A program made the position numbers and the translations under genes. Positions 25,515 through 51,621 of a stretch of 64,000 bases of DNA are shown here, one piece after another. Source of the DNA: a virus (Duplodnaviria > Heunggongvirae > Uroviricota > Caudoviricetes). Numbering within the stretch: the first letter of the stretch is position 1; the number at the start of each line of letters is the position of its first letter. The stretch covers positions 8,924 through 72,923 of the IMG/VR virus record IMGVR_UViG_3300028832_000119; one strand, written 5' to 3'. The notes beneath the pieces were generated by a model. The model was given only the letters and a program-made list of their open reading frames with translations. It had not been told where the DNA came from and did no database searches.

Positions 25515-25914
25515 ATTATAAAGACTGAAGCCGATACCGGGGATGCAGCTGAGGTGAGCATTATGAAGTAGGTATATAACCGACCGAAGCCAGTCTTTTA
25601 ATTAATAAAGAAAGAAGATTCGTAGAAGGGAATCCAGGAGTGTGGTTCGATGCGTGGTTACTAGTGAAGGCACTCTAATCCTAAAGATAAATCCACGTGA
25701 ATCCCTTCCTTTCTTTTAAAAAAAATTTATCTAACGCCTTATAGGCTAAGTCTATAAGTTTTATAATTATCCGAGGCTAAACAAATCGCCAGTATTAAAG
25801 AAACAAAGAAGGTAGTAGATAAGTTAAATGGTGTGGTGGAGGTACTAATAATTCGATCGTAAAAAGTACCGGGTAGGATAATTATCTTTTTACTTACAAA
25901 CAAAATAAATTAAA

Positions 25915-27747
25915 ATGATACAAGTAGAATTTAATAAGAAGAATGAAAACCAGTTTTATGGTTTGAGAAACTGTCTGAAGTTGCTTCAAGCCTCAACTGA
26001 TGGTTCAATTAGTATGTATCTAGTAGATGATGCATGGAATGAAGTTAAGAACTCTAAGGAAAATAGAGAACTTTTCTATTCATTGCTGTTCTCTATTGGC
26101 GACATTACTAATAGACAACACAATATTTTCAAGGGTAAGAAGAAAGATAGTGGTGGTGCTGCTAATCGTGAATTCTTCTATGAAATTGTTCATTGGCTTT
26201 GGAAGAACAACAAGGAGCAGTTCATTAAGTTCCTGAATGCCCAACTCTTTAATGAGTATGCTTGTTTCGATGTTCTGTTAAAGAACAGAGTACAAACTAA
26301 GGGTAATAAAGTACTTCATGTGTTTAAGGCATTTGAAGACAAAGAGTATCGTAAGGCTCTGTTAGATTATGTATATGCTGTTGTAAATGGAACTAATCCA
26401 TTCAATAAGCTTCTGATTGCTAAGTTCCTGACTATTCCTCGTACTTCTAAGCGTAAGGGACACAAGAAGATGTTGCCTGAAACTAAGGAGATTATGAAGG
26501 AGAAGTTGAGTTTCTTGACTGATCTTTCTAAGATGATGGGCTGGGAAACAGAATACTTGAAGGGTTATCGTGAGTGGCGTAAGCAGTACAATGGTGACCT
26601 GGAAAGTGTGATGTTTACTACTGGAAAGATTAATGATTTCACTAAGGATGAATTCATTGATTGGTTCGGCAAACTTCCAGCACAAGCTCGTTTCCGTGTA
26701 AAGAATAGAATTCTCTATTCTGAGCAGGAGATAGAACATCCTAATGGAGGTAAGTGCACTGTATATAAGTGGGCTAATTTCCAGCCTTGGATTAAAGAGT
26801 GGGAAACTTATAAGGAACAGAAGCAGCAAGAGCAACGTAATCTTGAGGAAAAGGTTCGTCAAGGTCAAGCTTCTGAGGAAGATAAGGTTAAGCTCCAGAA
26901 GGTTAAGAAGGAGGCCAAGGTAACAGTTGGTGCTACTAACTTTAAGGAGATTTATGATCAGATTGGTACTGGACGACTGGATAAGTTGAAGGTAGAATCT
27001 TTCATGAATAAGGTTAACCTGCCTTATAACTCTTTGGTAATTATTGATAGCTCTGGTTCTATGTCTGGCAAGCCATTCCTATATGCAGCATTTATTGCAG
27101 CAGTATGTTTGTGCAAGAATCCAGATGATGACGGTCGTAACCTGATTGGTATGTTTGATACAAACTCTAAGTGGTTTGCACATATTGATTCACAGGCTTA
27201 TGCTAAGAATTCCATCTTGAGAACTAAGGTTGCTAAGACTAAGGCTCAGCCATTGGTTGATCCTACTAAGAGTTTCTTGGATAACTATGCAGCTATTGCT
27301 AATTTCCTGAGAGATAAGTTCCATGGAGGTTCAACACGTATTGACTCTATTGCTGAAGGTCTGAAGGTAGCTTGTGATGAAGCTCCAGAGATTCTGGATG
27401 CTCTTCGTAACTATCCTGTATGGACTATCATCAGTGATGGTGAGTTCAATAGTATGTACTCTCCAGAAGCTTCAATGGCTGACTTCTTCCGTAAGTGTGA
27501 GAAGTACTTTGGATTCCGTCCTTATGTAGTTCTTATGGACATTTGTGTTGGTTGGAGAAGTCCAGAATCTCTCAAGGCTGACAGATTTAGTGGAATTGAC
27601 AACATGTTGTACATTCCTTCTAATCCTGCTATGATTGAGATGTTCTTGACTAACTTCAAGGATATGGAGACATTTGATGTATATACTCCTCTGTTGAGTA
27701 TGTATCGTTCAAATCGTTATCAACTCGTGCGTGAGAATACTCTTTGA
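25915..27747 (+). CDS. von Willebrand factor A (MIDAS) domain protein, 610 aa; possible TROVE/Ro60-like architecture (unverified)
   Basis: Complete MIDAS: VIIDSSGSMSG (DxSxS) ... T ... TIISDGE. The ~370-aa N-terminal helical region before the vWA domain matches Ro60/Rsr domain order. Host-like codon usage. Confidence 0.55.
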   Translation: MIQVEFNKKNENQFYGLRNCLKLLQASTDGSISMYLVDDAWNEVKNSKENRELFYSLLFSIGDITNRQHNIFKGKKKDSGGAANREFFYEIVHWLWKNNKEQFIKFLNAQLFNEYACFDVLLKNRVQTKGNKVLHVFKAFEDKEYRKALLDYVYAVVNGTNPFNKLLIAKFLTIPRTSKRKGHKKMLPETKEIMKEKLSFLTDLSKMMGWETEYLKGYREWRKQYNGDLESVMFTTGKINDFTKDEFIDWFGKLPAQARFRVKNRILYSEQEIEHPNGGKCTVYKWANFQPWIKEWETYKEQKQQEQRNLEEKVRQGQASEEDKVKLQKVKKEAKVTVGATNFKEIYDQIGTGRLDKLKVESFMNKVNLPYNSLVIIDSSGSMSGKPFLYAAFIAAVCLCKNPDDDGRNLIGMFDTNSKWFAHIDSQAYAKNSILRTKVAKTKAQPLVDPTKSFLDNYAAIANFLRDKFHGGSTRIDSIAEGLKVACDEAPEILDALRNYPVWTIISDGEFNSMYSPEASMADFFRKCEKYFGFRPYVVLMDICVGWRSPESLKADRFSGIDNMLYIPSNPAMIEMFLTNFKDMETFDVYTPLLSMYRSNRYQLVRENTL

Positions 27748-28217: not shown

Positions 28218-28252
28218 TGTTGTCATAGTTAGGATACTTACAAAATGGTAAA

Positions 28253-28329
28253 TATATATTAGTTCATTAGGTTAGAACGTTAGCTTGTCATGCTGAAAGT
28301 AGGAGGTTCAATCCCTTCATATATAACCA
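28253..28329 (+). tRNA. tRNA-Asp (GTC), CCA encoded; acceptor stem all A/T
   Basis: TATATAT-TA-GTTC-ATTAGGTTA-GAAC-G-TTAGC-TTGTCAT-GCTGA-AAGTA-GGAGG-TTCAATC-CCTTC-ATATATA-A-CCA. The TTACTTACAA motif ends ~10 nt upstream. Confidence 0.55.
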
Positions 28330-28393
28330 TAGTATCCTTTATTTTGACTGCTGTTTGTTTTTAATATAAATTTTAGGTACTTACAATCACATA

Positions 28394-28466
28394 ATTACAT
28401 TAGCTCATTAGGTAGAGCATCCGATTTTTAATCAGAGTGTAGCTGGTTCGATTCCAGTATGTAGAG
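28394..28466 (+). tRNA. tRNA-Lys (TTT)
   Basis: D-arm GCTC-ATTAGGTA-GAGC, anticodon loop TTTTTAA, T-arm GCTGG-TTCGATT-CCAGT. The TACTTACAA motif ends 7 nt upstream. Confidence 0.5.
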
Positions 28467-28602
28467 AAATTAGTACCTATTTTTAAATAGTACATAGTTA
28501 TTTTCATTTTTATAATGAATTTGTCGTTTCAATAGAAACAGTGGGTTTAGGCAGTAAAGTTAGGATAGGAATAAGAGCACCCCTAACCTATGTACTATAA
28601 TT

Positions 28603-28745
28603 TGGGGAGTTTGGGCATTGGTTAGGCCCGTTGTGATATGTGTAACTTAGGACAATCTTATGATTTAGAGTTACATACAAGCTCACTTATTAACACAATT
28701 TCTGGGACACAATCCAGAAGTGGAAGTTCGAACCTTTCACTCCCC
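28603..28745 (+). tRNA. tRNA with ~70-nt insertion (putative intron) in the anticodon region; isotype undetermined
   Basis: GGGGAGT/ACTCCCC acceptor, GGGC-ATTGGTTAG-GCCC D-arm, GGAAG-TTCGAAC-CTTTC T-arm. TTGTG...CACAA stems flank a 72-nt insert holding a GTAACT...AGTTAC hairpin plus ATACAA (motif variant). Confidence 0.4.
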
Positions 28746-28995
28746 GCTAATCCAAACTATAACAAGAAGTATAGACGGAACTGTGATACTGATAGGAACA
28801 AACGTAGGTGTGACTAATCGAGTATCTGAAGGTTAGGATAATAGCAGTACTAATCCTACGGAATGAATTGTTATTCTGTACAGAGTTTGGATTAAATTAT
28901 TAGACTAGACAAAAGGCAAATAGAATGGCCATTCTAAATATAATTGTGAAAAATATTCTAAACGTAAGTGCCTAGGATATTTCTAGTCTAAATCT

Positions 28996-29109
28996 GGCGG
29001 AGTAGTTAAACGGAAAATGAGTATCTGTTTAGTTACTTACAATATCGTATTTATTAACGCAAATTTGTCACATTTGAAAATAGGGGTTCGACTCCCCTCT
29101 CCGCCGCCA
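28996..29109 (+). tRNA. tRNA-Asp-like (GTC) with ~40-nt insertion in the D-loop; CCA encoded
   Basis: GGCGGAG...CTCCGCC-G-CCA acceptor, D-stem GTTA/TAAC enclosing AACGG + insertion (contains TTACTTACAA), canonical CAAAT-TTGTCAC-ATTTG anticodon arm, AGGGG-TTCGACT-CCCCT T-arm. Confidence 0.45.
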
Positions 29110-29172
29110 AGGTACAGAGAACTTGGGTACTGAGTCAAGGGTGCTGAGACTTTAAATAATGCACCATATCAA

Positions 29173-29297
29173 GGGGGAGTAGCTAAGTTAGAGAATTTTC
29201 TAGTAACTTAAGTTACTTACAATCTAATAATAAAAAATTACAGGTAAAGCATTTGTGTGAAAACAAAAGTACGTTGGTTCGATTCCAACCTCCCCCA
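29173..29297 (+). tRNA. tRNA with ~45-nt D-loop insertion (palindrome AGTAACTTAAGTTACT + TACAA); anticodon arm atypical (possible GAA in a 6-nt loop)
   Basis: GGGGGAG/CTCCCCC acceptor, GCTA D-stem, GTTGG-TTCGATT-CCAAC T-arm. TTTGT-GTGAAA-ACAAA stem-loop. Confidence 0.35.
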
Positions 29298-29457
29298 CAC
29301 TTGTCCACGGGTCCGTCTAGTAATAGACAATGGGACATTGTAGTATCACACCGCCTCTGATGCTACACGCAACCTAATAGTGTGTGTTCTATTTCAGCCT
29401 ATCTTGAAATATAAATTATTAGGAACAATAGGTGACAACTCGGAAAGACGAGTAACT

Positions 29458-29581
29458 GCCCAGGTAACTTAGTAATAAATTTTTTAGTAGCTAAAGTTAC
29501 TTACAATATCATAATTAAATTTTCGGTAAAAGTATTTGTCTGTTAAACAAAGTATCGCTGGTTCGAGTCCAGCCCTGGGCG
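29458..29581 (+). tRNA. tRNA-Asn (GTT) with ~45-nt D-loop insertion carrying AGTAGCTAAAGTTACTTACAA
   Basis: GCCCAGG/CCTGGGC acceptor, D-stem ACTT/AAGT around the insertion, TTTGT-CTGTTAA-ACAAA anticodon arm, GCTGG-TTCGAGT-CCAGC T-arm. Confidence 0.45.
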
Positions 29582-29694
29582 CTTTTTGATTGTTTGATTA
29601 TTTATTGTTGTGAAACAAAGAATGATTGTTTTAGGTTAGTCAAATTTTAAGGTTAGTAATTTAGTCCAGAAAGCGTTCTGGACATTTTTAAAAT

Positions 29695-29819
29695 GGGGAA
29701 GTAGTGAAATGGTAATTTCTAGTAGCTACTTTGTTACTTACAATATCATAATATAAATTCAAGGTAAACACGCAAATTTTAGGTATTTGAAACTCCGGGT
29801 TCGAGTCCCGGCTTCCCCA
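29695..29819 (+). tRNA. tRNA with D-loop insertion; anticodon loop TTTAGGT (UAG anticodon, Leu-type loop) but a short variable arm
   Basis: GGGGAAG/CTTCCCC acceptor, CAAAT-TTTAGGT-ATTTG anticodon arm, CCGGG-TTCGAGT-CCCGG T-arm. Insertion contains GTTACTTACAA. Confidence 0.4.
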
Positions 29820-30002
29820 CTTCCCAGTTTCCTAAACTTTTACTGTGAAAAGTTTTAGAGAAAATAGAGATTATCTGCTTAAGTGATAACTCCACTTATC
29901 CTACGGGTGAAAGTAAGCGTAGGTAGGTCTTTTAGTATAATATATAGGACGCTATATATTGAATAAAGATAACAGATGTGGAATGGAATCCCACATCTAT
30001 TC

Positions 30003-30079
30003 GAAGGGTTCGTCCAGTGGTAAGACTGCAGTTATGGTTATGTCAGCTGTAGAACAGGGGTTCGATTCCTCTACCCTTC
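30003..30079 (+). tRNA. tRNA-like gene with enlarged (15-nt) anticodon-region loop; isotype undetermined
   Basis: GAAGGGT/ACCCTTC acceptor, GGGG-TTCGATT-CCTCT T-arm, TGCAG...CTGTA stem around TTATGGTTATGTCAG. Confidence 0.3.
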
Positions 30080-30186
30080 TCAATTATCTATGGAACTTGA
30101 CGAAATAGGGGTCGCGCAGGAAGCAGCTTATAAATCATGACCCGCTGCTAAGATCAATAAAGTAGATAATTTGTCCGACGGGACAG

Positions 30187-30251
30187 TGTCAATAGCTTAG
30201 TGGAAAGAGCTCCTGCAAAGGACGACGGTGGTTCGAATCCATCTTGACACA
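30187..30251 (+). tRNA. tRNA-like gene (clear acceptor/D/T arms, irregular anticodon arm)
   Basis: GTGTCAA/TTGACAC acceptor, GCTT-AGTGGAAA-GAGC D-arm, GGTGG-TTCGAAT-CCATC T-arm. Confidence 0.3.
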
Positions 30252-30261
30252 CAATTATAGG

Positions 30262-30300
30262 TTACTTACAAAAACAATTATCGTTGGTTCGATTCCTCTA
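30262..30300 (+). other. TTACTTACAA motif followed by a duplicated tRNA 3' half (copy of 30059-30086)
   Basis: ggttcgattcctctacccttc is repeated verbatim downstream of the motif. No 5' half present. Confidence 0.4.
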
Positions 30301-30439
30301 CCCTTCACTATGAAAAATTTAGATGTAAATACAATGTATCAACATGATACAGAAATAAGTCCTGCTTTAAGATATTGTCAACCAGGATTATTAATTAATT
30401 TAAAAAAGTTTTTAAAATTATTAAACAAAGATTAACAAT

Positions 30440-30955
30440 ATGGAACAAATTATTTATGGAATTACAGCAGTAATCTATGCCGTATTCATTATTCGATTTA
30501 TCCTTAGTTGGGTAGGTGGAGATTTTGATTTTGACATAGATGACATTGATTTGGATTTAAGTGATGTAGTTTCCTTTAAAGGTGCTACTCATTTTCTAAT
30601 GGGATTCTTTAGTTGGTTATCAACTACATTATTAACTACTCATACTATAGAATGGTATGATTATATTTTAGCATTTATATTAGGTGTAATATTCGTAGTG
30701 ATATTATTTTATACCTATAAATTAATGTTAAATTTAGAAAGTAATCCAACTATATTAAAAGAAAGGGATTTAATTGGAACACCTGCAAAAATATATCTAT
30801 CTTCTAAAAAGAAAAGAGATGATGATTACCATTATTTAATTACAGTAGAAAATAGTACTGGAACATTCGAAGTTCCTGCTAAATCTGTTGATCTTTATAG
30901 TATTGGTGATATGGTGCAAATTAAAGACTTCAGTGGATCTTATTACATTATTTAA
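30440..30955 (+). CDS. NfeD-like membrane protein (partner of flotillin)
   Basis: N-terminal TM helices plus a C-terminal beta-rich domain (GTPAKIY...VENSTGTFEVPAKS...GDMVQIKDFSGSYYII), typical of short NfeD/YuaF-type proteins. Directly precedes the flotillin gene. Confidence 0.5.
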   Translation: MEQIIYGITAVIYAVFIIRFILSWVGGDFDFDIDDIDLDLSDVVSFKGATHFLMGFFSWLSTTLLTTHTIEWYDYILAFILGVIFVVILFYTYKLMLNLESNPTILKERDLIGTPAKIYLSSKKKRDDDYHYLITVENSTGTFEVPAKSVDLYSIGDMVQIKDFSGSYYII

Positions 30956-30971
30956 ATAACAAACAAACATT

Positions 30972-33044
30972 ATGACATTAACAACTATTATTGTTGCAGG
31001 AGTAATTGTTCTCCTAGTGATTTTAACAATTATCGGGCTTTTGTCTCGTTATCGTAGATGTCCCAGTGATAAACTGTTAGTTGTATTTGGTCGAAATAAG
31101 ACCAAAACAGTTGAGGAAACCTACAAAGATGTAGATGGTAAAGAGAAAACTCGTAAAGTAACTCTTCATCTCCCTGCTAAGATTATTCAAGGTGGTGGTA
31201 CATTTGTATGGCCTATTGTCCAGGATTATCGTGAGATGTCTCTCAGACCTATTCTTCTTAGTAAGAAGATTGAGGGTGTATCATCTCAGATGATTAAGAC
31301 CTTTGTATCAATTGAATTGTCAGTAGCTATTGGTAATGAAGAAGAGCTTCGTATGAATGCAGCTTCTCGTTTCTTGAGTGCTAATGAGAGTGAAATTAAG
31401 AACTCTATTGAGGCTATCTATGTAGGTGAGGTAAGATCTCTGATGGCTCGTATGACCATTGAGGAACTGAACTCTGATAGAGAGGCATTCTTGACTGATG
31501 CTAAGAGAAATATTGAAATTGAGCTGCAAAAGGTTGGTTTCGTTATTCTTAACATTAACATTTCAGACCTGGATGATGATGCAGATTATATCACCAACTT
31601 AGGTCAGAAAGCTGCTACTCAGGCTAAGGCAACAGCTGAGGCTGATATTGCTGAGCAGGAGAAGATTGGAGAGGTTAAGATTGCGAATACTCGTAAGGAG
31701 AAATCTATCCAGTTAGCAGAAGCACAGAAAGAAGAGGAAATCCAGGTAGCTGCACAGAATAAAGATCGAGAGACTACTGTTGCTCAAACTAAACAGGAAC
31801 AAGAAGTTCGTGTTGCAGAGATTGAGAAAGAAAAGCAGACTAAGATTGCTGATACTCAGAAGGCTAAGGAAGTACAGCTTGCTGAGATTAAGAAGGATAA
31901 GGAATCTGGTATTGCTAGTCAGAAGGCTCTTGAGATTGCTGCTGTGGCAGAGGCTGATGCAAATGCTGAATCAAGTAAGGCTGAAGCTGAAGCACGTAAG
32001 GTTGCTGCAGTTGCTGCTCAGAAAGCAAAGGCAGAGTCTTCTAAGGCAGAATCTGAGTCTAATCAGCGTAAGGCTGTAGCTGCTGCACAGGCAGATGCAG
32101 AGGCAACTGAGAATGAGAAGGAAGCTCTTAAGCAGACTCGTATTGCTCAAGCTAATCAGAAGAAGGAAGCTGATATTATCCAGGCTACTCAGGAGAAGGA
32201 AGCTAAACAGGCTGAGTTCGAATCACAAAAGCAGATTCGTAAGGCTAAGGCTGACCAGGATGCTGGTGTAGCAGAACAGAATGCAAAGATTCTCGTAGCC
32301 CAGGCTCGTGCAAAGGCTGGTCAAGCAGAAGCTGATGCTGATAAGACTGTAAAGGTTGCTAAGATTGAAGCTGACATGAAGGCAGCTAAGACCCAACAGG
32401 AACGTCAGTTAGAGGTAAATGAGGCTGAGGCATTGGCAGTTGAAGCTAAGTTGAATGCTGAGCAGGTTGTACCTGCTGAGCAGGCTAAGAGAAAGACCAT
32501 CATCGAAGCAGAAGCTATTAAGGAACAGGCTATTCTTCAGGCAGAAGCGGAAAAGCAACGTATTCTTAAGAAGGCTGAAGCTGATGCAGAACAGGTTCGT
32601 CTAAAGATGAATGCTGAAGCTGAAGGTATTAAGAATAAGAAGCTTGCTGAGGCTGAAGGTCAGAAGGCTCTGTTGTTTGCAGAAGCAGAGGCTCTCCAGA
32701 AGAGAGAGATGGCTCCTGCACTGGCTCTGCAGAAGATGGTAGAATCATTCGGCGGTAACCCTGATCTTCTTGTTCAGTACAAGATGGTTGATCAGTATAA
32801 GGGCATTGCTGAGGCTCAGGCTCATGTACTTGAACATATTCAGCTTGGTAATGTTACTGTTTATGGTGACTCCAACACTGGTGCTCAAGTTGCTAAGAGT
32901 TTCGTTGAGAACTTCTCACCTGCTCTGGATATTATCAACAAAGGATTTGGTAAGCAATTTGGACAGCTCTTTAATAAAGAGAAGAAAGAAGAGTTGCCAG
33001 CTCCTGAAGAGAAAAAGGATGAAACTTTTGAGGAAGTAAAGTAA
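30972..33044 (+). CDS. flotillin-like SPFH/band-7 protein with long Ala/Glu-rich coiled-coil repeats (690 aa)
   Basis: N-terminal membrane anchor, SPFH-like region, then an extended EA-repeat coiled coil (KAEAEARKVAAVAAQKAKAE...), as in bacterial FloT/YqiK. GC-richer, host-like codon usage. Confidence 0.6.
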   Translation: MTLTTIIVAGVIVLLVILTIIGLLSRYRRCPSDKLLVVFGRNKTKTVEETYKDVDGKEKTRKVTLHLPAKIIQGGGTFVWPIVQDYREMSLRPILLSKKIEGVSSQMIKTFVSIELSVAIGNEEELRMNAASRFLSANESEIKNSIEAIYVGEVRSLMARMTIEELNSDREAFLTDAKRNIEIELQKVGFVILNINISDLDDDADYITNLGQKAATQAKATAEADIAEQEKIGEVKIANTRKEKSIQLAEAQKEEEIQVAAQNKDRETTVAQTKQEQEVRVAEIEKEKQTKIADTQKAKEVQLAEIKKDKESGIASQKALEIAAVAEADANAESSKAEAEARKVAAVAAQKAKAESSKAESESNQRKAVAAAQADAEATENEKEALKQTRIAQANQKKEADIIQATQEKEAKQAEFESQKQIRKAKADQDAGVAEQNAKILVAQARAKAGQAEADADKTVKVAKIEADMKAAKTQQERQLEVNEAEALAVEAKLNAEQVVPAEQAKRKTIIEAEAIKEQAILQAEAEKQRILKKAEADAEQVRLKMNAEAEGIKNKKLAEAEGQKALLFAEAEALQKREMAPALALQKMVESFGGNPDLLVQYKMVDQYKGIAEAQAHVLEHIQLGNVTVYGDSNTGAQVAKSFVENFSPALDIINKGFGKQFGQLFNKEKKEELPAPEEKKDETFEEVK

Positions 33045-33195
33045 ACTTCTTTTCTGTGAATAAAAATAGGATACTTACAATAATATATGCATTACATTGA
33101 TAGTTCGAATCTATCTTTTGGCTCCATGCCTAAATCGCTCAATGGTAGAGCATCAAATTTGTAATTTGACGTAAATTATTAGTATCCTTTTATGT

Positions 33196-33302
33196 GAGGT
33201 CTTAGTTTTTAAGGGGTAGAATGGCTATGCTGTGGTAAAGAGCTTCGGGTTAGAAAGTGTTCCCATATCATAGAAGGTGTTGGTTCAAATCCAACAGACC
33301 TC
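33196..33302 (+). tRNA. tRNA-like gene (~107 nt) with internal insertion; isotype undetermined
   Basis: GAGGTCT/AGACCTC acceptor 107 nt apart, GTTGG-TTCAAAT-CCAAC T-arm. Confidence 0.3.
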
Positions 33303-33308
33303 CCGGCT

Positions 33309-33379
33309 AAGAGAGTGTAAGTTCGATTCTTACAATATAGGTTCGAGTCCTATGCAGGTTCGAATCCTGCAACTCTCTT
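33309..33379 (+). ncRNA. acceptor-like stem enclosing three tandem T-arm hairpins
   Basis: GAGAGTG - TAAG-TTCGATT-CTTA - TAGG-TTCGAGT-CCTA - CAGG-TTCGAAT-CCTG - CAACTCTC. Confidence 0.35.
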
Positions 33380-33386
33380 AAATCTC

Positions 33387-33465
33387 TCTATGGGCAAATT
33401 GGTAAAGTCGTTTGGTTCAAACCCAAAAGTTGTGTAGGTTCGAATCCTACTAGGGAGACTATAAG
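33387..33465 (+). tRNA. tRNA-like gene; anticodon-position hairpin TTTGG-TTCAAAC-CCAAA (CAA, Leu-like?)
   Basis: TCTCTAT/TAGGGAGA ends, GTAGG-TTCGAAT-CCTAC T-arm, D-arm irregular. Confidence 0.3.
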
Positions 33466-33485
33466 TTACTTACAATATTAAATGG

Positions 33486-33530
33486 GCACATTAAATCACG
33501 GGTTCGATTCCCGTAAGAACCGCCATTTTT
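33486..33530 (+). other. motif + tRNA 3' half (T-arm ACGGG-TTCGATT-CCCGT plus AAGAACC-G-CC) with no matching 5' half nearby
   Basis: Preceded by AAGTTACTTACAA. No GGTTCTT partner strand upstream. Confidence 0.3.
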
Positions 33531-33632
33531 GGTTTTTTAGTCTAGTGGTTAGGACAAATGTTTAAGTAACTTTTTTATGAACTTCTTGTAATAAATCCAT
33601 AATTTCAAAGATTAGAGATACTTACAATCTCA

Positions 33633-33690
33633 TTCGTATGAATGAATTGAGGGTTCGAATCCCTTCTTTGCTTATGCAATGTGGCGGAAT
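33633..33690 (+). ncRNA. small cloverleaf-like tRNA mimic with the ACTTACA motif as the loop of the D-arm-position hairpin
   Basis: TCAAAGA-TTA-[GAGAT-ACTTACA-ATCTC]-[CATTC-GTAT-GAATG]-AATT-[GAGGG-TTCGAAT-CCCTT]-CTTTGC. Confidence 0.3.
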
Positions 33691-33756
33691 GGTAAACGCG
33701 AAACACTGAAGATGTTTTTTCGAAACAAATAAATACAAAGTATCTCTACATGGGAG

Positions 33757-33870
33757 GTAGTGTAGTGGTAACACGCAGTAGTTTTTTAGTATTATAATTA
33801 ATACTTACAAATTCTATTTAACGTTGCTTATGGTGCCTGTATCCCAGTGTTCGATTCCTGGCCTCCTGAC
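33757..33870 (+). tRNA. tRNA-like gene with canonical D-arm and ~50-nt insertion (hairpin AGTATT/AATACT + TACAA)
   Basis: GGGAGG...CCTCC acceptor, GTGT-AGTGGTA-ACAC D-arm, TTCGATT T-loop. Confidence 0.3.
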
Positions 33871-33884
33871 TAATTTTTATTATT

Positions 33885-34379
33885 ATGAAAATAGAAGATA
33901 GAATACAGAATATTAAGAAATTACTTAGTTATTGTCCAAAGGCCAGTAATGAAGTAATGATTAATGATGAAACTTGTACAAAATTCTTTGGTAAATTTTT
34001 TTCATCTCAACCAAATAGATTTAAAAAACCTGAATTTGATGAATGTAGAGTTCAGATAGAATTAATTGATATATTAGATAAAGATGTCAGAACAAAACAC
34101 TATACAGTAGGTTTACGATATTGTTATAATTGGGATAGAGAAGGAGAAGCTTGGACTCTTTATTATTTTAATGATCCTGAGTGTTACTTTAGAGAATGGC
34201 AACAGCCTGAATTAGAATATTTTGAAATTCCAAACGATATTTGGGAAAAGATACAAAATATTCTTTATGATAAAGCAACAGAAACTATTAATAAAGAACT
34301 CAAATCTGCCAAAAAATCCGTTGAATATTGGGAAGAAAAATTATTTGAATTTAATTATAATTTAAAATTAAATAAATAA
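33885..34379 (+). CDS. hypothetical protein (164 aa)
   Basis: ORF between tRNA arrays. Confidence 0.5.
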   Translation: MKIEDRIQNIKKLLSYCPKASNEVMINDETCTKFFGKFFSSQPNRFKKPEFDECRVQIELIDILDKDVRTKHYTVGLRYCYNWDREGEAWTLYYFNDPECYFREWQQPELEYFEIPNDIWEKIQNILYDKATETINKELKSAKKSVEYWEEKLFEFNYNLKLNK

Positions 34380-34384
34380 AGTTT

Positions 34385-34612
34385 ATGGGAAAAGGTAAAG
34401 GTACATTAGTAGTTCGTGAAAGAGCAGCTTTAAAAAGATTGGAGGCAGCTTATGAGAAATTTAAGGCTGCTGGTGAAGATAAGAAACCTTGGGATTCAAC
34501 CCGAAATGGTTTTCCTATCCATCACAAAGGTAGAAGTTATAATGAAGAATGTGAAAGAATGAAAAGAGAAATTTCCAATTTAAAGGAGAATATCTCTAAA
34601 AATTCTATTTAA
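34385..34612 (+). CDS. small basic hypothetical protein (75 aa)
   Basis: ORF. Confidence 0.45.
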   Translation: MGKGKGTLVVRERAALKRLEAAYEKFKAAGEDKKPWDSTRNGFPIHHKGRSYNEECERMKREISNLKENISKNSI

Positions 34613-34743
34613 CATTTTTTAACTGTAACATCTAAAAAATAAAAAATAAATTTAATGTCTAAGATACTTACAAATTTTCGTAAAATATTGTGTAAAAATT
34701 AATAATAAATGTTGGTGAAATTCTGGAAATAAGTATCTTAAAG

Positions 34744-34826
34744 TGCCTCAATATTCGAATTGGTATAGAAGGCAGACTTAAAATCTGCTCCGGTTAACGG
34801 GTCGGGGTTCGAGTCCCCGTTGAGGT
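34744..34826 (+). tRNA. tRNA-Leu (TAA), type II
   Basis: GCCTCAA/TTGAGGT acceptor, GCAGA-CTTAAAA-TCTGC anticodon arm, long variable arm CCGGTTAACGGG, CGGGG-TTCGAGT-CCCCG T-arm. Confidence 0.55.
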
Positions 34827-34966
34827 ACAAAACACGTGTTAAAGAGGATGACTTATTGTAATAAAGGACAATCTGTGGTAGAATAACAATATTACAATAT
34901 GGTGAATAAATTCGTTGGGATCTTTTAATGGAATAATCTGTCTAACCAACAGCACCCTCAAAACAT

Positions 34967-35038
34967 TGGACCTTAGTGTAATTGGCAACACATAACTTTT
35001 TGGCAGTTAGGTAATCAGTTCGAGTCTGGTAGGTCCAA
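34967..35038 (+). tRNA. tRNA-Gln (TTG)
   Basis: TGGACCT/AGGTCCA acceptor, GTGT-AATTGGCA-ACAC D-arm, TAACT-TTTTGGC-AGTTA anticodon arm, ATCAG-TTCGAGT-CTGGT T-arm. Confidence 0.5.
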
Positions 35039-35249
35039 CAATAATCCACACTGAGAACAACGATCCTTTATATACATTCCCGGGGCTTCATATGTATATA
35101 TTGTGAGACAGGTCAGTTAGTTTATCTACTTGCGAAAGGGGTAGTGAAGAGTTGGATTATATTTTTAATATCCGGGGGGAGAGAAACAGTTTACTCGTTA
35201 GTCTCATAAGCTAAAGACATCAGGCGCGACTCCTGAACCCCGAACCAAT

Positions 35250-35323
35250 CTCGAAATAGCTTAGTGGCCTAAAGCGCAGCACTCATAATGCTGAGACCGA
35301 TAGTTCAAATCTATCTTTCGAGA
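35250..35323 (+). tRNA. tRNA-Met (CAT; could also be an fMet or Ile-lysidine type)
   Basis: CTCGAAA/TTTCGAG acceptor, GCTT-AGTGGCCTA-AAGC D-arm, CAGCA-CTCATAA-TGCTG anticodon arm, GATAG-TTCAAAT-CTATC T-arm. Confidence 0.55.
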
Positions 35324-35339
35324 CTTAACTAAAAATCTT

Positions 35340-35525
35340 TTGACTATGATAGGAACAACTATATATTTGATAGGAATGATTGTTGCCTTTATAATATGTC
35401 TAAGACTTATTTATAAAGAACCAAATAAAGCTGATTTACAATATGATATAATAGCACCTTGTTGTATAATGTCATGGATTTTTGTAATATTAGCATTATG
35501 GAAATTAAGAGATAAAATATTTTAA
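35340..35525 (+). CDS. small membrane protein (61 aa) embedded in the tRNA array
   Basis: ORF with two hydrophobic helices. Confidence 0.4.
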   Translation: MTMIGTTIYLIGMIVAFIICLRLIYKEPNKADLQYDIIAPCCIMSWIFVILALWKLRDKIF

Positions 35526-35527
35526 AT

Positions 35528-35598
35528 GCGGATGTAGTTTAATGGTAGAACCTCAGATTTTCAGCCTGAAGACGACGGATCGTAACCGTCCTTCCGTA
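35528..35598 (+). tRNA. tRNA-Glu (TTC), atypical T-loop ATCGTAA
   Basis: GCGGATG/CTTCCGT acceptor (6/7 paired), GTTT-AATGGTA-GAAC D-arm, TCAGA-TTTTCAG-CCTGA anticodon arm. Confidence 0.4.
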
Positions 35599-35790
35599 CT
35601 AGTCCCACCAAATCCTGTAGGGTGGTTAAAGATAAATAGGGGCCTGCTCTAGTACAGGCTGGCATTACTAGAAGTAGGGGAGAAACTTTTCCTTGGTACT
35701 GACATCAAAAAAAAGTTCGTCCAGAAATGGAAGTAGAACCCGAAGGTATTAGAATGATGACTATAGGAGGTCTAAGAGAATAGGGTTATG

Positions 35791-35863
35791 GGACGGGTGA
35801 TGTAATTGGCTAACATACCTCCCTTGCAAGGAGGAATTAAGGGTTCGAGTCCCTCTCGCTCCA
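35791..35863 (+). tRNA. tRNA-Ala-like (TGC) with poorly paired acceptor stem (possible pseudogene)
   Basis: ATGT-AATTGGCTA-ACAT D-arm, CCTCC-CTTGCAA-GGAGG anticodon arm, AGGG-TTCGAGT-CCCT T-arm. 5' GGACGGG vs 3' TCGCTCC pairs imperfectly. Confidence 0.35.
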
Positions 35864-35956
35864 CTCGGTTTTAGTTAAACAATTTTGAGATACTTACCAT
35901 ATCAAAGAACTAAATATTGGTAAAAATACAAATTTAAAAAATAGTATCTCTATGAT

Positions 35957-36549
35957 GGCTCCATAGCTCAGCTGGATAGAGCAACTGCCTTCTATTAAAA
36001 TTGGATGCTATGGCAGGAAACTCCATAGTAGAATCTCCCTAAAACGGTGGAAATCCTTTTAGCCCTAATATATTTTAGGAGGATTTTCTGCGCTGAACAA
36101 TTGCAGAACACTAACCAATAATGTGTAAGGATAATACCGTGCTAAATTGAGTATAATATTAATGACTTGGTAACATAGAAACGAGTAGCGCAGTTGATAT
36201 TAAGACTCATAAATGTGTAGAGAGTATAGAGGAGATACCTAAGTTGAAATTTTAGATTTGTGAAGTTAGTCTAAGTATTTTCAGGTGAAATAAACTGCGC
36301 TCCCTTATGGTGAATACGTTAAGCTGTAAGACAAGTTGCGGAAAAATAAAAGAAAGGACTATATAAGCAAATTTAATCTTGCAAGAGTTTCAATATGGTA
36401 AAGATGTATTCCAGACTACAACAAACAACACAATTGTCCTTACGAGGGCATGAAACTGTGAATTAACACTGGTCTGTGAAAATGTTTGGCTATGGTAACA
36501 TAGAGTAGCAGGAAGCAGTAGGTCCTTGGTTCGAATCCAAGTGGAGTCA
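35957..36549 (+). tRNA. tRNA gene (probably Arg, TCT) split by a ~500-nt putative group I intron in the anticodon loop
   Basis: 5' half GGCTCCA-TA-GCTC-AGCTGGATA-GAGC-A-ACTGC-CTTCT... at 35957-36004. Matching 3' half ...GCAGT-AGGTC-CTTGG-TTCGAAT-CCAAG-TGGAGTC-A at ~36509-36549. The intervening sequence is structured and contains a group-I R-like element (CCAGACTACA, ~36412) and a candidate P7 partner (ACTGGTCTG). No alternative 5' acceptor strand lies near the 3' half. Confidence 0.45.
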
Positions 36550-36652
36550 CAAATTCTTATACTAGATACAGAATGTTTTTTTTCTTTCATGATAAAATTA
36601 AATTTTTCCATTTGATTATAGATAGGAGGAAATTCTAGTTAATCCTCCAATC

Positions 36653-36727
36653 GGTCTATTCGTATAATGGTTATTATGCTTGACTGTCTATCATGAGAAA
36701 AGGGTTCGATTCCCTTATAGACCGCCG
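36653..36727 (+). tRNA. tRNA-like gene (clean acceptor GGTCTAT/ATAGACC and T-arm; anticodon arm irregular, possibly GTC)
   Basis: AAGGG-TTCGATT-CCCTT T-arm. Loop CTGTCTA. Confidence 0.35.
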
Positions 36728-37393
36728 CCTATCTTTAATGCATAGATATAAAACAGCATTAGTGGTACTATTCCTTCTCAAAGTTAATAGCGTAAGTTAA
36801 TGTCTTTTACGATAGTAAAGCATCGATTTTCTCCTTAAAGTTAGAAAGTGAGACGTTTGGTTTTGTTAGTTTTACAGCGTGAAGTAAAAACTAATAGGAT
36901 TATCGGAACGATAGGTCGCTCCTATGGGTAGATAATTAACAATAATGGAGTTTGGCAGATTCCATTATTAATTGGGCCTTACAGGATTAGACGGCTGTTG
37001 AAGGTAATAAGAACAAGCAAAGACGGATGGAAAGACATCAAATAATTAAATGGCAATAAAGCTAAAACTGTAACCATCGGTAGCAGAAGCTTCCGTATGG
37101 CTGCCTAAGTTGGTAACTTACTTAGTCGTCAGAAAGTTACAATAATAGAAATTATTAAACTTAAGTCATTAAACAAGGGAGCCTTGGTCCTTCTAATTGA
37201 CTGATTAGTAAATTATAGGCTGGTGGAACTGATGACTATCCAGTCATCCCCTTGGAGAAGAATAACTCCTTAAAAAATTGAAAAGCTTGTATAATTCTTA
37301 TAGAATAAGCAGTTCGGACGAGGTTTCGACTACCTCAAGGTCCACTTTATTACGTTATTTATTAACGAGATACTTTACAAAATCATATTTTAT

Positions 37394-37467
37394 GAATTTT
37401 TAGCTCATTTGGATAGAGCAATATCCTGCTAAGATGTGTGTAGTCGGTTCGATTCCGGCAAAATTTA
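37394..37467 (+). tRNA. tRNA with anticodon GCT but a short variable arm (type I)
   Basis: GAATTTT/AAAATTT acceptor, GCTC-ATTTGGATA-GAGC D-arm, ATATC-CTGCTAA-GATGT anticodon arm, GTCGG-TTCGATT-CCGGC T-arm. The GATACTTTACAA motif ends 9 nt upstream. Confidence 0.45.
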
Positions 37468-37485
37468 TTTTTAGTATCTCCTTAT

Positions 37486-37559
37486 AGTTCCATGGTGTAG
37501 TGGTCAAACATGTCACTCTTACAAAGTGAAGATCCTCAGTTCAAATCTGAGTGGAACTA
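37486..37559 (+). tRNA. tRNA-Val (TAC)
   Basis: AGTTCCA/TGGAACT acceptor, GTGT-AGTGGTCAA-ACAT D-arm, TCACT-CTTACAA-AGTGA anticodon arm, CTCAG-TTCAAAT-CTGAG T-arm. Its anticodon loop CTTACAA resembles the array-wide ACTTACAA motif. Confidence 0.55.
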
Positions 37560-37816
37560 CTACTTTTTTCATCGTTATATGAAAATTTGTTAGTTTTGTG
37601 CGGCAAGGGGAGCTTCAACTATTATTAGTTGAGGTTCCCCTAATTTTTTTATTGAGTTTATGGAAAAATTAACTAAACAACAACAACTTATTATAGAAGA
37701 ATTAAAATTATTAATAGCTCTTCATATAAATAGACTTCAGCAACTCGGAATGACTGAAGAAGATGCTACTGAACAAACTTATAGAGAGATTAATTATCTA
37801 TTAAAGGAATAGAGTT

Positions 37817-45278: not shown

Positions 45279-45654
45279 TAAAACTTAATAATATGAAACT
45301 AAGAGTATTAAAAAAGAAGCATCCATCTAAATTAGAAAGGATATGGATTGAACACTATTTAGTATGGAAATCCTTAAAATGGTTAAATGAGGATTATCAA
45401 TCAATAAGACTTTATTATATGGAGTCTTGTAAAAAACATATTGGACTATGATAATAGATTTTAGTAAATATGATTGCTTTATAGCAGAATGTTATGAAGC
45501 AGAAGATGAATTTTGGAAAGGAATTTATGAAGATATTGAGTCTGATTATTGGATAAATGAAAATAAAAATAATTTTTGATTTTTTAACAACTATTAATAG
45601 TATTAACTGTTAATAGTAGATAGTTCAATTTTTTAACGTTAAAAATCAAAATTT

Positions 45655-48990: not shown

Positions 48991-49063
48991 GCTCGTATAG
49001 TTCAATTGGCAGAACGGTGGTCCTCAAAACCAAATGTTGAGAGTTCGATCCTCTCTATGAGCA
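48991..49063 (+). tRNA. tRNA-Trp-like with apparent UCA anticodon (candidate opal/UGA-reading suppressor); C at position 33
   Basis: GCTCGTA/TATGAGC acceptor, GTTC-AATTGGCA-GAAC D-arm, TGGT-CCTCAAA-ACCA anticodon stem-loop (anticodon TCA at 49024-49026), ATGTT variable loop, GAGAG-TTCGATC-CTCTC T-arm. The body closely parallels the CCA-anticodon tRNA-Trp at 51545 and E. coli tRNA-Trp, except loop CCTCAAA versus CTCCAAA. Confidence 0.4.
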
Positions 49064-49171
49064 CTAAATAATAAATTGTTAATTTTTATTAAATTCATAA
49101 GTTTGAGTTTGAATTTTCAAACTTAAAAATATATTTATAGTACGAAGATTAAAACCCCTTCGTCTATTAAT

Positions 49172-49958: not shown

Positions 49959-50032
49959 TCTGATGTAGCATAGTTGGTTAATGCACTTGACTGATAATCA
50001 AGAGATCTCTGGTTCAAGTCCAGACGTCAGAA
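49959..50032 (+). tRNA. tRNA-Ile (GAT)
   Basis: TCTGATG/CGTCAGA acceptor, GCAT-AGTTGGTTA-ATGC D-arm, CTTGA-CTGATAA-TCAAG anticodon arm, TCTGG-TTCAAGT-CCAGA T-arm. Confidence 0.55.
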
Positions 50033-50035
50033 CTA

Positions 50036-51616: not shown

Positions 51617-51621
51617 CAAAT

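What the first reader, a model, noticed from the sequence alone, without database searches (positions are those of the whole stretch)
28230..37560. tRNA arrays in which many tRNA genes carry 40-100-nt insertions (D-loop or anticodon region) sharing a conserved hairpin + TTACTTACAA element
At least eight tRNA genes (28603, 28996, 29173, 29458, 29695, 30003, 33196, 33757) have intact acceptor, T-arm and usually anticodon arms but are 100-145 nt long. The extra sequence is inserted mostly in the D-loop.

The insertions share a palindromic hairpin (AGTAACT-TA-AGTTACT / AGTAGCT-AA-AGTTACT / AGTATT...AATACT) followed by TACAA. The same motif (GATACTTACAA) also sits 7-12 nt upstream of intron-less tRNAs (28253, 28394, 37394) and precedes orphan 3' tRNA halves (30262, 33486).

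Bacterial or phage tRNA introns at the D-loop are not a described class. Candidates are a new short intron family, a miniature palindromic insertion element targeting tRNA genes, or a processing/recognition signal, perhaps linked to the two HNH endonucleases in the arrays.
Basis: seen in the sequence. Interest (0 to 1): 0.85.

Follow-up and report, generated by a model that had tools for sequence, protein, structure and literature searches.

The report
Phage tRNA-like RNAs sharing one stem
A gut/rumen-type phage carries an array of tRNAs and circularly rearranged tRNA look-alikes that all bear the same small RNA stem, most likely a docking handle for a Ro60-like protein encoded next door, which would make them a new, much expanded version of the "Y RNA" particles rather than intron-containing tRNA genes.

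Summary
Six of the eight listed long tRNA genes carry the hairpin + ACUUACAA element; 30003 and 33196 do not. The element is one module: an 8-10 bp helix (arm A, NNGNYACU, with arm A', AGURNCNN) followed by single-stranded UACAA.

Arm pairing, the acceptor stems split by the insert, and all five helices of a permuted tRNA-Thr(UGU)-like gene covary across related phages.

The motif is at chance level elsewhere in the window. It co-occurs with a 610-aa gene directly upstream (helical domain plus Ro60-type vWA domain). The same stem also encloses that gene's start codon.

Best reading (about 0.45): a protein-binding RNA handle on tRNA scaffolds, working like Ro60/Y RNA (YrlA) particles. It fails the sequence-based membership tests for that family. 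Rivals are a protein-dependent splicing/circularisation signal, a promoter/terminator pair, and a mobile element. RNA end mapping would decide.

The parts
25888..25929 (+). Module copy in the 5' leader of the 610-aa gene: arm A 25888-25894 (UUUUACU), UACAA 25895-25899, partner arm 25923-25929 (AGUAGAA) inside codons 3-5. The stem encloses the start codon at 25915.
   Evidence: The motif lies within 60 nt upstream of the ATG in 42 of 47 loci, and the partner arm covaries with arm A.
25915..27747 (+). 610-aa protein: helical N-domain plus C-terminal MIDAS vWA domain (Ro60-like architecture). Candidate binder of the module.
   Evidence: co-occurrence
28231..28338 (+). Bracket unit around a whole tRNA: arm A 28231-28238, UACAA 28239-28243, tRNA-Asp(GUC) 28253-28329, arm A' 28331-28338.
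28374..28479 (+). Bracket unit around tRNA-Lys(UUU) 28394-28466: arm A 28374-28381, arm A' 28472-28479.
28604..28747 (+). tRNA-like gene with the module as a closed hairpin in the anticodon-loop position: A' 28641-28648, A 28668-28675 (variant ACA/UGU, compensated), UACAA 28676-28680. A conserved extra arm follows.
28996..29109 (+). tRNA-Asp(GUC)-like gene with the module in the D-loop after G18G19. Arm A 29026-29037 pairs with tRNA nt 6-17 (29001-12); UACAA 29038-29042.
29173..29298 (+). tRNA(GAA)-like gene with a D-loop hairpin: A' 29202-29209, A 29210-29217, UACAA 29218-29222.
29458..29582 (+). tRNA-Asn(GUU)-like gene with a D-loop hairpin: A' 29486-29492, A 29495-29501, UACAA 29502-29506.
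29695..29820 (+). Class-I tRNA(UAG)-like gene with a D-loop hairpin: A' 29721-29726, A 29733-29738, UACAA 29739-29743. GGUAA is duplicated on both sides of the insert.
30256..30311 (+). Truncated remnant: arm A + UACAA + start of a Thr-like permuted unit, fused at the T-loop to a copy of the 3' end of tRNA 30003-30081.
33068..33188 (+). Circularly permuted tRNA-Thr(UGU)-like gene. Order: arm A 33068-33075, UACAA, T-arm, acceptor 3' strand + U + CCA, U linker, acceptor 5' strand, D-arm, anticodon arm, arm A' 33181-33188, then a U-run.
33463..33572 (+). Circularly permuted tRNA-like gene opened in the anticodon loop (CCA + UUUUU linker): arms 33463-33470 and 33565-33572.
33613..33748 (+). Circularly permuted tRNA mimic with its acceptor stem closed by a UUAU tetraloop and a variable-arm hairpin. 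The anticodon is not conserved among orthologues. Arms 33613-33622 and 33739-33748 (10 bp).
33751..33870 (+). tRNA-like gene with an intact D-arm and the module hairpin after about nt 26-28: A' 33788-33794, A 33799-33805, UACAA 33806-33810.
34660..34740 (+). Bracket around a 63-nt non-conserved AU-rich spacer, 5 nt upstream of tRNA-Leu(UAA) 34745-34828.
35887..35950 (+). Bracket (variant UACCA) around a 48-nt spacer, just upstream of the interrupted tRNA-Arg(UCU).
37367..37480 (+). Bracket (variant ACUUUACAA) around class-I tRNA(GCU) 37393-37468. Arm A' 37473-37480 lies 5 nt upstream of tRNA-Val.

Best explanation
The shared element is an RNA module, not an intron. It is an 8-10 bp helix with a conserved end (5'-..G.YACU paired with AGUR.C..-3'), followed on the 3' side of arm A by single-stranded UACAA(U/A).

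The helix always points its conserved end at a tRNA or tRNA-like body. Its far end is either closed by a short loop (module sits inside a tRNA) or open (the two arms bracket a whole tRNA, a circularly permuted tRNA mimic, or a decayed spacer).

I propose it is the docking site for the 610-aa Ro60-like protein (helical domain + vWA) encoded directly upstream. The same stem encloses that gene's ribosome-binding region and start codon, which would give feedback repression. The arrays would then encode a large set of Y-RNA-like particles: protein handle plus tRNA mimic.

For bracketed ordinary tRNAs the handle would be leader/trailer, removed by RNase P and 3' trimming. For permuted units it would be the terminal stem, as in Y RNAs. 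The Thr-like unit could additionally be opened by RNase P at its encoded CCA, as shown for M. smegmatis YrlA.

Shown: the structure, its covariation, and its co-occurrence with the gene. Inferred: protein binding, feedback, retention of the module in the mature RNA, and the downstream role (tethering or decoying host tRNA-binding factors).
For: (1) Pairing is real. 76% of motif sites have a perfect partner of at least 7 bp within 220 nt, against 7% of random positions. Arms covary between copies and orthologues.

(2) In 14 D-loop-interrupted genes, the acceptor stem across the insert is 100% paired, with 5 of 7 pairs changed on both sides. The insert hairpin is 99% paired, with 7 G.U cells and no A.C cells.

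(3) In 11 distinct permuted Thr(UGU)-like units, 96.5% of cells are paired and 19 of 29 pairs are compensated across all five helices; 0 of 500 shuffles reach this, and slid controls give at most 47% paired. In-silico rotation of 15 bracket units gives tRNA scores of 113-125.

(4) Architecture matches YrlA: terminal stem, then T-arm, closed acceptor hairpin and D-arm. Rfam gives a full-length but weak YrlA alignment. One family has a tetraloop-closed acceptor and non-conserved anticodons, and anticodons drift among near-identical D-loop orthologues.

(5) The module-bearing tRNAs repeat anticodons (Asp GUC, Lys UUU, Phe GAA, Asn GUU, Thr UGU) that uninterrupted tRNA genes elsewhere in the window also carry, most of them in the second array at 49959-56189.

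(6) Gene link. All 7 loci with the 610-aa gene carry 8-17 motif copies; 5 of 5 related loci without it carry 0-2. Of 40 further loci with the gene, 37 carry 6-13 copies. A homologue at 36% identity still has 6 copies.

(7) The motif lies within 60 nt upstream of the gene's ATG (9-26 nt in all but one) in 42 of 47 loci, with a covarying partner arm inside the first codons.

(9) Precedent: YrlA RNAs lie within 4 kb of Ro60 on the same strand, including in 22 phages; M. smegmatis YrlA is cut by RNase P and CCA-added (PMC4201824). Phage phiLo Ro60 binds two phage Y-like RNAs and host PNPase (PMC12135203).
Against: - No sequence-level TROVE signal in the N-domain (Pfam; hhalign aligns only the vWA part). 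The Ro60 likeness rests on modest structural scores from a model with pLDDT 74.
- The RNA motif (ACUUACAA) is unlike the GNCGAA/GGUCCGA Ro-binding motif, and the best Rfam YrlA score is 22.9 bits against a threshold of 69.
- Co-occurrence could reflect shared ancestry of one phage clade rather than function.
- Asp(GUC) in 6 sequences and Thr(UGU) in 11 keep their anticodons, and the Thr units keep an encoded CCA (CCA or close variants), as expected for real decoders that would need the module removed or tolerated.
- Another conserved product in the array, the 75-aa basic protein at 34385-34612, could be the binder instead.
- No RNA or binding data exist.
Confidence: 0.45

Rival explanations
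1. Splicing/circularisation signal. A phage or host endonuclease recognises the stem-UACAA module and cuts on both sides of it, and an RNA ligase joins the tRNA parts. D-loop-interrupted genes would then yield normal tRNAs, and permuted genes would yield circles that RNase P and 3' processing open at the acceptor end.
For: - Removing the module in silico gives high-scoring tRNAs.
- Acceptor, T, D and anticodon stems are maintained by compensatory change across the insert or the permutation point.
- Asp(GUC) is conserved in 6 sequences and Thr(UGU) in 11, the latter with a 7-bp acceptor, a discriminator base and CCA or close variants.
- A 50-nt arm at the tRNA elbow would probably clash with the ribosome (inference).
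- AU-rich helices can bring the two insert ends together (own reading).
Against: - No bulge-helix-bulge or other fixed geometry at the junctions. Insert length ranges from 26 to 64 nt and boundaries are ambiguous.
- The same module brackets intact tRNAs and empty spacers, where splicing has no purpose.
- One permuted family has a closed acceptor stem and variable anticodons, so it cannot be a tRNA.
- Anticodons drift in the main D-loop family.
- No EndA, RtcB or Rnl domain was found in the roughly 30 ORFs of the window that were scanned, though only 64 kb was seen and not every ORF in it was scanned.
- The anticodons involved are also carried by uninterrupted tRNA genes elsewhere in the window.
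Confidence: 0.2
2. Transcription signals. UACAAU is a -10-like promoter element of a phage-specific or -35-independent promoter placed before each small RNA gene. Arm A' plus the following T-run is a terminator or insulator that pairs with arm A only in read-through transcripts.
For: - TACAAT resembles TATAAT and lies 5-12 nt upstream of tRNA 5' ends in bracket units.
- The motif precedes the 610-aa gene in 42 of 47 loci. One further copy follows a terminator hairpin at 19490.
- The three bases after A' are T in 60-71% of bracket units.
Against: - No -35 or other upstream conservation, and no sigma-70-type prediction coincides with the motif.
- The last hexamer base is T in only about 55% of copies, while ACU upstream is invariant.
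- Arm A would lie upstream of the start site, yet it covaries with A', including with codons of the 610-aa gene and through G.U pairs.
- Outside the arrays the motif is at chance frequency, and it is absent from the second tRNA array and from the structural genes.
- A promoter inside a D-loop would split the tRNA. Leaders of 2-19 nt would result for the protein gene.
Confidence: 0.1
3. Mobile or recombination element. The hairpin is the joined ends of a small cassette-like or MITE/PATE-like element that inserts into tRNA genes, or carries tRNA cargo between its inverted arms. The permutations reflect integration of a circular form at different break points.
For: - Many copies occur at several positions in tRNA genes.
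- Inserts in different tRNAs are similar beyond the core (29458 and 29695).
- GGUAA is duplicated on both sides of the 29695 insert.
- A recombinant remnant sits at 30256-30311.
- Blocks of tRNA-like genes are gained or lost between relatives.
- GIY-YIG genes lie in the arrays of L129 and L131.
- Permuted and interrupted layouts are circular permutations of one another.
Against: - Arms differ between copies and are kept complementary by compensatory change. They are not identical as in recent transposon copies.
- There is no consistent target-site duplication.
- Units occupy orthologous positions in phages whose marker protein is 54-77% identical.
- All copies lie on the transcribed strand.
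- G.U but no A.C pairs occur in the aligned hairpins.
- No transposase or integrase was found nearby.
Confidence: 0.1

Closest known systems
Bacterial and phage Y RNAs of the YrlA type with Ro60/Rsr (Rfam RF02553; Chen et al. 2014, PMC4201824; phage phiLo Ro60-Yrl1/2, PMC12135203)
   Same: - Small RNAs encoded on the same strand within a few kb of a ring/helical + vWA protein gene.
- A terminal stem formed by the 5' and 3' ends, with a short conserved motif on the 5' strand.
- A tRNA-like domain in permuted order (T-arm, acceptor-like hairpin, D-arm).
- The acceptor of one known member is opened by RNase P and CCA-added.
- Several different RNAs per locus.
   Different: - The motif is ACUUACAA next to an ACU/AGU helix end, not GNCGAA.
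- The protein has no detectable TROVE sequence signature.
- At least 14 units occur in this window and 6-17 per fetched locus, instead of the 1-4 described for known systems.
- The permuted units keep a full anticodon arm.
- The same handle is also grafted as a closed hairpin into D-loops, position 26 and anticodon loops of otherwise canonical tRNAs, and brackets ordinary tRNAs.
- The handle also overlaps the protein gene's start codon.
Circularly permuted tRNA genes of Cyanidioschyzon merolae and some green algae, and Thermofilum pendens (own knowledge and PMC3978253)
   Same: The 3' half is encoded upstream of the 5' half, the halves are joined across the acceptor ends by a short linker, and a leader/trailer helix flanks the unit.
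   Different: Those genes use a bulge-helix-bulge motif cut by the tRNA splicing endonuclease and are matured through a circle. Here no such motif is seen, the host system is bacterial-type, and some units cannot be tRNAs (closed acceptor stem).
Non-canonical tRNA introns of Crenarchaeota and C. merolae, including D-loop positions (PMC3241643, PMC3728597)
   Same: Short insertions at D-loop, anticodon and variable-region positions of otherwise normal tRNA genes.
   Different: Archaeal and eukaryal introns are defined by BHB/hBH motifs and EndA. This insert has a sequence-specific hairpin + UACAA and no BHB, and sits in a phage of bacterial type.
Translational operators bound by their own gene product (for example MS2/R17 coat protein on the replicase start hairpin; own knowledge)
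   Same: A sequence-specific stem that encloses the ribosome-binding site and start codon of the gene.
   Different: Here the operator-like stem is one copy of a module present 6-17 times on other RNAs in each fetched locus. Binding has not been shown.

Membership tests
YrlA / Y RNA (Rfam RF02553) | Score at or above the Rfam gathering threshold (69 bits) | tested here: not met
   Best hit is 22.9 bits at 33078-33184, full model length, E 0.02-0.3. No hit at the gathering threshold in the window.
YrlA / Y RNA (Rfam RF02553) | Permuted tRNA-like domain (T-arm, acceptor-like hairpin, D-arm) enclosed by a stem formed by the RNA's two ends | tested here: met
   Layout read. The alignment to the YrlA consensus covers T-arm, hairpin and D-arm. 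Rotation gives tRNA scores of 113-125. Covariation is seen in all helices.
YrlA / Y RNA (Rfam RF02553) | Conserved Ro60-binding motif GNCGAAN0-1G (or GGUCCGA) near the 5' end | tested here: not met
   The conserved 5'-strand motif is ACUUACAA. No GNCGAA-type conservation is seen.
YrlA / Y RNA (Rfam RF02553) | Encoded within about 4 kb of a Ro60 orthologue on the same strand | tested here: inconclusive
   The arrays start 480 nt downstream of the 610-aa gene on the same strand, and the motif tracks the gene. Orthology of that gene to Ro60 is not established.
YrlA / Y RNA (Rfam RF02553) | Physical association with the Ro60 protein | not testable with these tools
   Needs RIP or EMSA.
Ro60 / TROVE proteins | TROVE (HEAT-repeat ring) domain detectable by sequence | tested here: not met
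   No PF05731 hit for 23 close or 22 distant family members at E up to 10 and 1 respectively. hhalign against a profile of six genuine Ro60 proteins aligns only the vWA part.
Ro60 / TROVE proteins | Helical ring domain followed by a vWA domain, judged by structure | tested here: inconclusive
Ro60 / TROVE proteins | C-terminal vWA domain with a MIDAS motif (DxSxS) | tested here: met
   IIDDSGSM is invariant. hhalign to the Ro60 vWA domain gives 86.7-95.5% probability.
Protein-spliced tRNA introns / permuted tRNAs (EndA + BHB) | Bulge-helix-bulge (3-4-3) motif at both junctions | tested here: not met
   MFE folds and manual inspection of six interrupted and three permuted units show no such motif. 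Junction positions and insert lengths vary. No dedicated BHB scan was run.
Protein-spliced tRNA introns / permuted tRNAs (EndA + BHB) | Splicing endonuclease and RNA ligase available | tested here: inconclusive
   None was found among the roughly 30 ORFs of the 64-kb window that were scanned. The rest of the genome and the host are unseen.
Group I intron in tRNA | Ribozyme core of about 200 nt or more, inserted in the anticodon loop | tested here: not met
   Inserts are 26-64 nt and mostly in the D-loop. No Rfam intron or ribozyme hit at E up to 5.
Sigma-70-type promoter | -35 and -10 hexamers with 16-18 nt spacing | tested here: not met
   No predicted site coincides with the motif, and the number of sites equals the shuffle expectation. 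No conservation upstream of arm A.
MITE / PATE-type mobile element | Near-identical copies with terminal repeats and target-site duplication | tested here: not met
   Arms differ and covary. No consistent duplication is seen. Copies are orthologous across distant relatives.

The most novel reading that the evidence does not exclude
A bacteriophage clade matures tRNAs from D-loop-interrupted and circularly permuted genes by a protein-dependent cut-and-ligate pathway that recognises the stem-UACAA signal. The Ro60-like protein would act as the recognition subunit. This would be the first protein-spliced and permuted tRNA genes outside archaea and eukaryotes.
Probability: 0.15. Interest if true: 0.95.

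Novelty: new variant of a known kind. Interest (0 to 1): 0.8.

Why it matters
If the handle binds the neighbouring protein, this is a large, widespread and so far unannotated family of phage ribonucleoprotein particles. The protein family has more than 1,200 clusters in metagenomes and no member in GenBank phage records. One protein would be coupled to a dozen or more tRNA-shaped RNAs.

That would extend the Ro60/Y RNA paradigm in three ways: a new recognition code, modular grafting of the handle onto real tRNAs, and likely feedback control. It would give a tractable system for asking what tRNA mimicry by Y RNAs is for, for example hijacking PNPase or decoying anticodon nucleases.

If instead the module is excised, it would be a new tRNA splicing system.

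Either way these genes are invisible to, or mis-called by, standard tRNA finders, which distorts tRNA counts in recoded gut phages.

Tried and rejected
- The collection scan with ACTTACAAN{8,38}GGTTCGA returned only single chance matches.
- The scan with GATACTTACAAN{85,115}AGTATC was also dominated by chance hits. It was useful only for finding the distant locus L232.
- Megablast and tblastn against GenBank phages found no relative of the locus or of the 610-aa protein.
- Pfam and PHROGs gave nothing for the array's neighbouring ORFs except SPFH.
- No uninterrupted orthologue of the interrupted tRNAs was found among the fetched loci, so exact insert boundaries could not be fixed.
- A G.U versus A.C strand-asymmetry test on automatically chosen partners was inconclusive (10 against 4). 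The aligned D-loop family gave 7 G.U and no A.C.
- A swapped-arm control for the 5'-leader stem was uninformative because most arms share GUUACU.
- Ribozyme and intron families: no Rfam hit.
- The AFDB fold library was unavailable, and alignment A3 was too divergent for a locus search.
- MazF-type cleavage at UACAA and attC-like or IS200/IS605-like hairpins were considered from memory. They were dropped for lack of any matching defining feature.

Full report
CONTEXT. The window is 32% G+C. It carries 34 ARAGORN tRNAs plus a tmRNA. Its minus-strand structural genes read TAG as sense. It therefore looks like a stop-codon-recoded phage. No GenBank phage is related. Relatives exist only in metagenome collections.

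CHECKING THE OBSERVATION. ACTTACAA occurs 19 times against 3.9 expected. The excess is entirely on the + strand between 28236 and 34673, with close variants at 28673, 35892 and 37372 and one copy at 25892. The remaining six copies are what chance predicts.

Deleting the insert yields tRNA scores of 113-122.5. Two listed genes (30003, 33196) have insertions that lack the element.

The 7-10 nt before UACAA (arm A, ending ACU) always have a complementary arm A' (starting AGU). A' is either just upstream, giving the hairpin inside a tRNA, or 42-120 nt downstream. A perfect partner of at least 7 bp exists at 76% of motif sites against 7% of random sites. Arms differ between copies and are kept complementary.

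THE FOUR LAYOUTS.
- (a) A-UACAA-N5-12-[whole tRNA]-N4-7-A': 28231-28338, 28374-28479, 37367-37480.
- (b) A-UACAA-[3' half, linker, 5' half]-A', a circularly permuted tRNA-like gene: 33068-33188, 33463-33572, 33613-33748.
- (c) 5' part-A'-loop-A-UACAA-3' part: six genes.
- (d) A-UACAA-[42-70 nt of unconserved AU-rich spacer, sometimes with tRNA remnants]-A', lying 3-7 nt before a tRNA: 34660-34740, 35887-35950.

In every layout the conserved helix end and the UACAA strand face the tRNA body. The variable end is looped or open. The layouts are circular permutations of one another.

COMPARATIVE EVIDENCE. Loci were fetched through the SPFH gene and through the 610-aa gene. They share the motif and the layouts.

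Rotating 15 bracket units in silico gives tRNA calls scoring 113-125. For 11 distinct Thr(UGU)-like permuted units, a MAFFT alignment and a structure read from the window copy give 96.5% paired cells. Nineteen of 29 pairs are changed on both sides. All five helices covary. No shuffle of 500 and no slid control comes close.

For 14 D-loop-interrupted genes, the acceptor stem spanning the insert is 100% paired with 5 of 7 pairs compensated. The insert hairpin is 99% paired, with 7 G.U and no A.C cells.

These are structured RNAs under selection, read from the + strand.

ARE THEY tRNAs? Some look like it. Asp(GUC) is kept in six sequences. Thr(UGU) is kept in eleven, with a 7-bp acceptor, a discriminator base, CCA (or close variants) and a U-rich linker.

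Others cannot be tRNAs. One permuted family has its acceptor stem closed by a tetraloop, and its anticodon varies between orthologues (GAA, GAG, AAU, CAA, UGA). In the main D-loop family, near-identical orthologues carry GUU, AUG, GCU, GGU or AUU. Several genes are class-I sized with Leu or Ser anticodons.

All the anticodons involved are also carried by uninterrupted tRNA genes elsewhere in the window, most of them in the motif-free second array at 49959-56189.

THE NEIGHBOURING GENE. The arrays begin 480 nt after a 610-aa ORF (25915-27747). It belongs to a large metagenome-only family (176 representatives at 50% identity). It has no Pfam or PHROG match.

I built a profile of genuine Ro60 proteins. 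It combined human Ro60, recalled from memory and verified at 1224 bits against 9nen, with five phage Ro proteins. That profile aligns to the 610-aa family at 95.5% probability, but only over the vWA domain.

The architecture is therefore Ro60-like. Homology of the N-domain is unproven.

LINK BETWEEN GENE AND MOTIF. Every one of 7 loci with the gene has 8-17 motif copies. Five related loci without it have 0-2, including L125, which is equally close by SPFH identity and rich in tRNAs. Of 40 further loci with the gene, 37 have 6-13 copies, almost all on the gene's strand. A 36%-identical homologue still has six copies with brackets and a permuted Thr-like unit.

In 42 of 47 loci the motif lies within 60 nt upstream of the gene's ATG (9-26 nt in all but one). 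Its partner arm falls in the first 5-25 codons and covaries with arm A:
- UUUUUACU with AGUAGAA or AGUAAAA(A)
- CGUUACU with AGUAACG
- UGUUACU with AGUAACA
- UAGUUACU with AGUAACUG

. The stem therefore encloses the start codon, as in classic autoregulatory operators.

INTERPRETATION. The closest known system is Ro60 with YrlA-type Y RNAs. These are permuted tRNA mimics closed by a terminal stem, with a short conserved 5'-strand motif. They are encoded beside Ro60 on the same strand in bacteria and in 22 phages. M. smegmatis YrlA is cut by RNase P and receives CCA (PMC4201824). Phage phiLo Ro60 binds two phage Y-like RNAs and host PNPase (PMC12135203). Rfam aligns unit 33078-33184 to the whole YrlA model, but at only 22.9 bits.

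I therefore read the element as a protein-binding handle on tRNA scaffolds. It works like Ro60/Y RNA but fails the family's sequence-based membership tests: the motif is different, there is no TROVE signature, and the Rfam score is sub-threshold.

The new features are the recognition motif, the copy number, the grafting of the handle into D-loops, position 26 and anticodon loops of otherwise canonical tRNAs, the bracketing of ordinary tRNAs, and the operator-like copy on the protein's own mRNA.

RIVALS. A cut-and-ligate maturation signal is supported by conserved anticodons and CCA, and by the likely incompatibility of a 50-nt elbow arm with translation. It is weakened by the lack of a BHB-like geometry, by brackets around intact tRNAs and empty spacers, by units that cannot be tRNAs, and by no ligase or endonuclease among the ORFs scanned in the window.

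A promoter/terminator reading is supported by the resemblance of TACAAT to a -10 element and by the T-run after A'. It is weakened by the absence of upstream conservation, by chance-level frequency elsewhere, and by covariation of an arm that would not be transcribed.

A mobile-element reading is supported by similar inserts in different tRNAs, by the remnant at 30256-30311, and by GIY-YIG genes in relatives. It is weakened by covarying arms, orthologous positions and strand bias.

None of the rivals is excluded without RNA end mapping.

AN UNRESOLVED DETAIL. In the interrupted genes, arm A can pair either with the local A' or with tRNA nucleotides 6-17. A' resembles the conserved AGUAGCU of tRNAs. 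In the Asp family the tRNA segment is the better partner. This may reflect origin by duplication, or a conformational switch.

Noticed in passing
window 1-11581 (-), 45643-47976 (+), 11921-11993 (-), 48991-49064 (+): Long ORFs (portal-like, terminase-like, a 778-aa ORF) appear only if TAG is read as sense. A tRNA(CUA) and a tRNA(UCA) are encoded. The phage appears to be stop-codon recoded in its late genes.
   Followed up: partly
window 35953-36550: tRNA-Arg(UCU) is interrupted after the anticodon by an insert of about 520 nt with no Rfam match at E up to 1. The orthologous tRNA is uninterrupted in L121 (15513-15587) and L122 (17300-17373).
   Followed up: partly
window 33196-33304 and 30003-30081: Two tRNA-like genes have anticodon-loop insertions (32 nt and 8 nt) that lack the stem-UACAA module. 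This is a second, unexplained kind of interruption.
   Followed up: partly
window 28749-28893; L121 8752-8895, L122 8425-8567, L129 12864-13011, L131 12666-12808, L133, L135, L137: A conserved structured spacer of about 145 nt is closed by AAUCCAAACU/AGUUUGGAUU, with the same spacing in at least 8 loci. It contains an internal GAUACU...AGUAUC pair without UACAA. It may be another ncRNA family of the array.
   Followed up: partly
window 29437-29450, 29664-29683; L122 and L126 equivalents: Short GC-rich hairpins with GAAAG-type loops sit 3-12 nt upstream of the D-loop-interrupted tRNA genes, in the window and in relatives.
   Followed up: no
window 33384-33459, 37393-37468, 29695-29820: tRNAs of class-I size carry Leu (CAA, UAG) or Ser (GCU) anticodons without a long variable arm, so their amino-acid identity is unclear.
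   Followed up: no
window 34385-34612: A 75-aa lysine/arginine-rich protein inside the array is 77-87% identical in L121, L122, L129 and L131. It is an alternative candidate for binding the module.
   Followed up: partly
window 30256-30311: A chimeric remnant: the start of a Thr-like permuted unit (identical to L126 9062 up to the T-loop) is fused to a copy of the 3' end of tRNA 30003-30081. This indicates recombination at the shared GGUUCGA T-loop.
   Followed up: partly
window 28996-29037 and other interrupted genes: Arm A is complementary to tRNA nucleotides 6-17 (AGUAGUUAAACG) as well as, or better than, to the local A'. MFE folds choose this alternative pairing, which would unfold the D-arm.
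   Followed up: partly
window 49172-49759 and 57576-58154: An HNH endonuclease lies next to the second, ordinary tRNA array, and an RNase H gene lies further downstream. Neither is inside the finding's coordinates.
   Followed up: yes
window 30972-33044 and 30440-30955: A 690-aa SPFH/Band 7 protein and a 171-aa protein are conserved between the two module-bearing arrays in most relatives (L130 lacks both). They also occur in relatives that lack the module and the 610-aa gene.
   Followed up: partly
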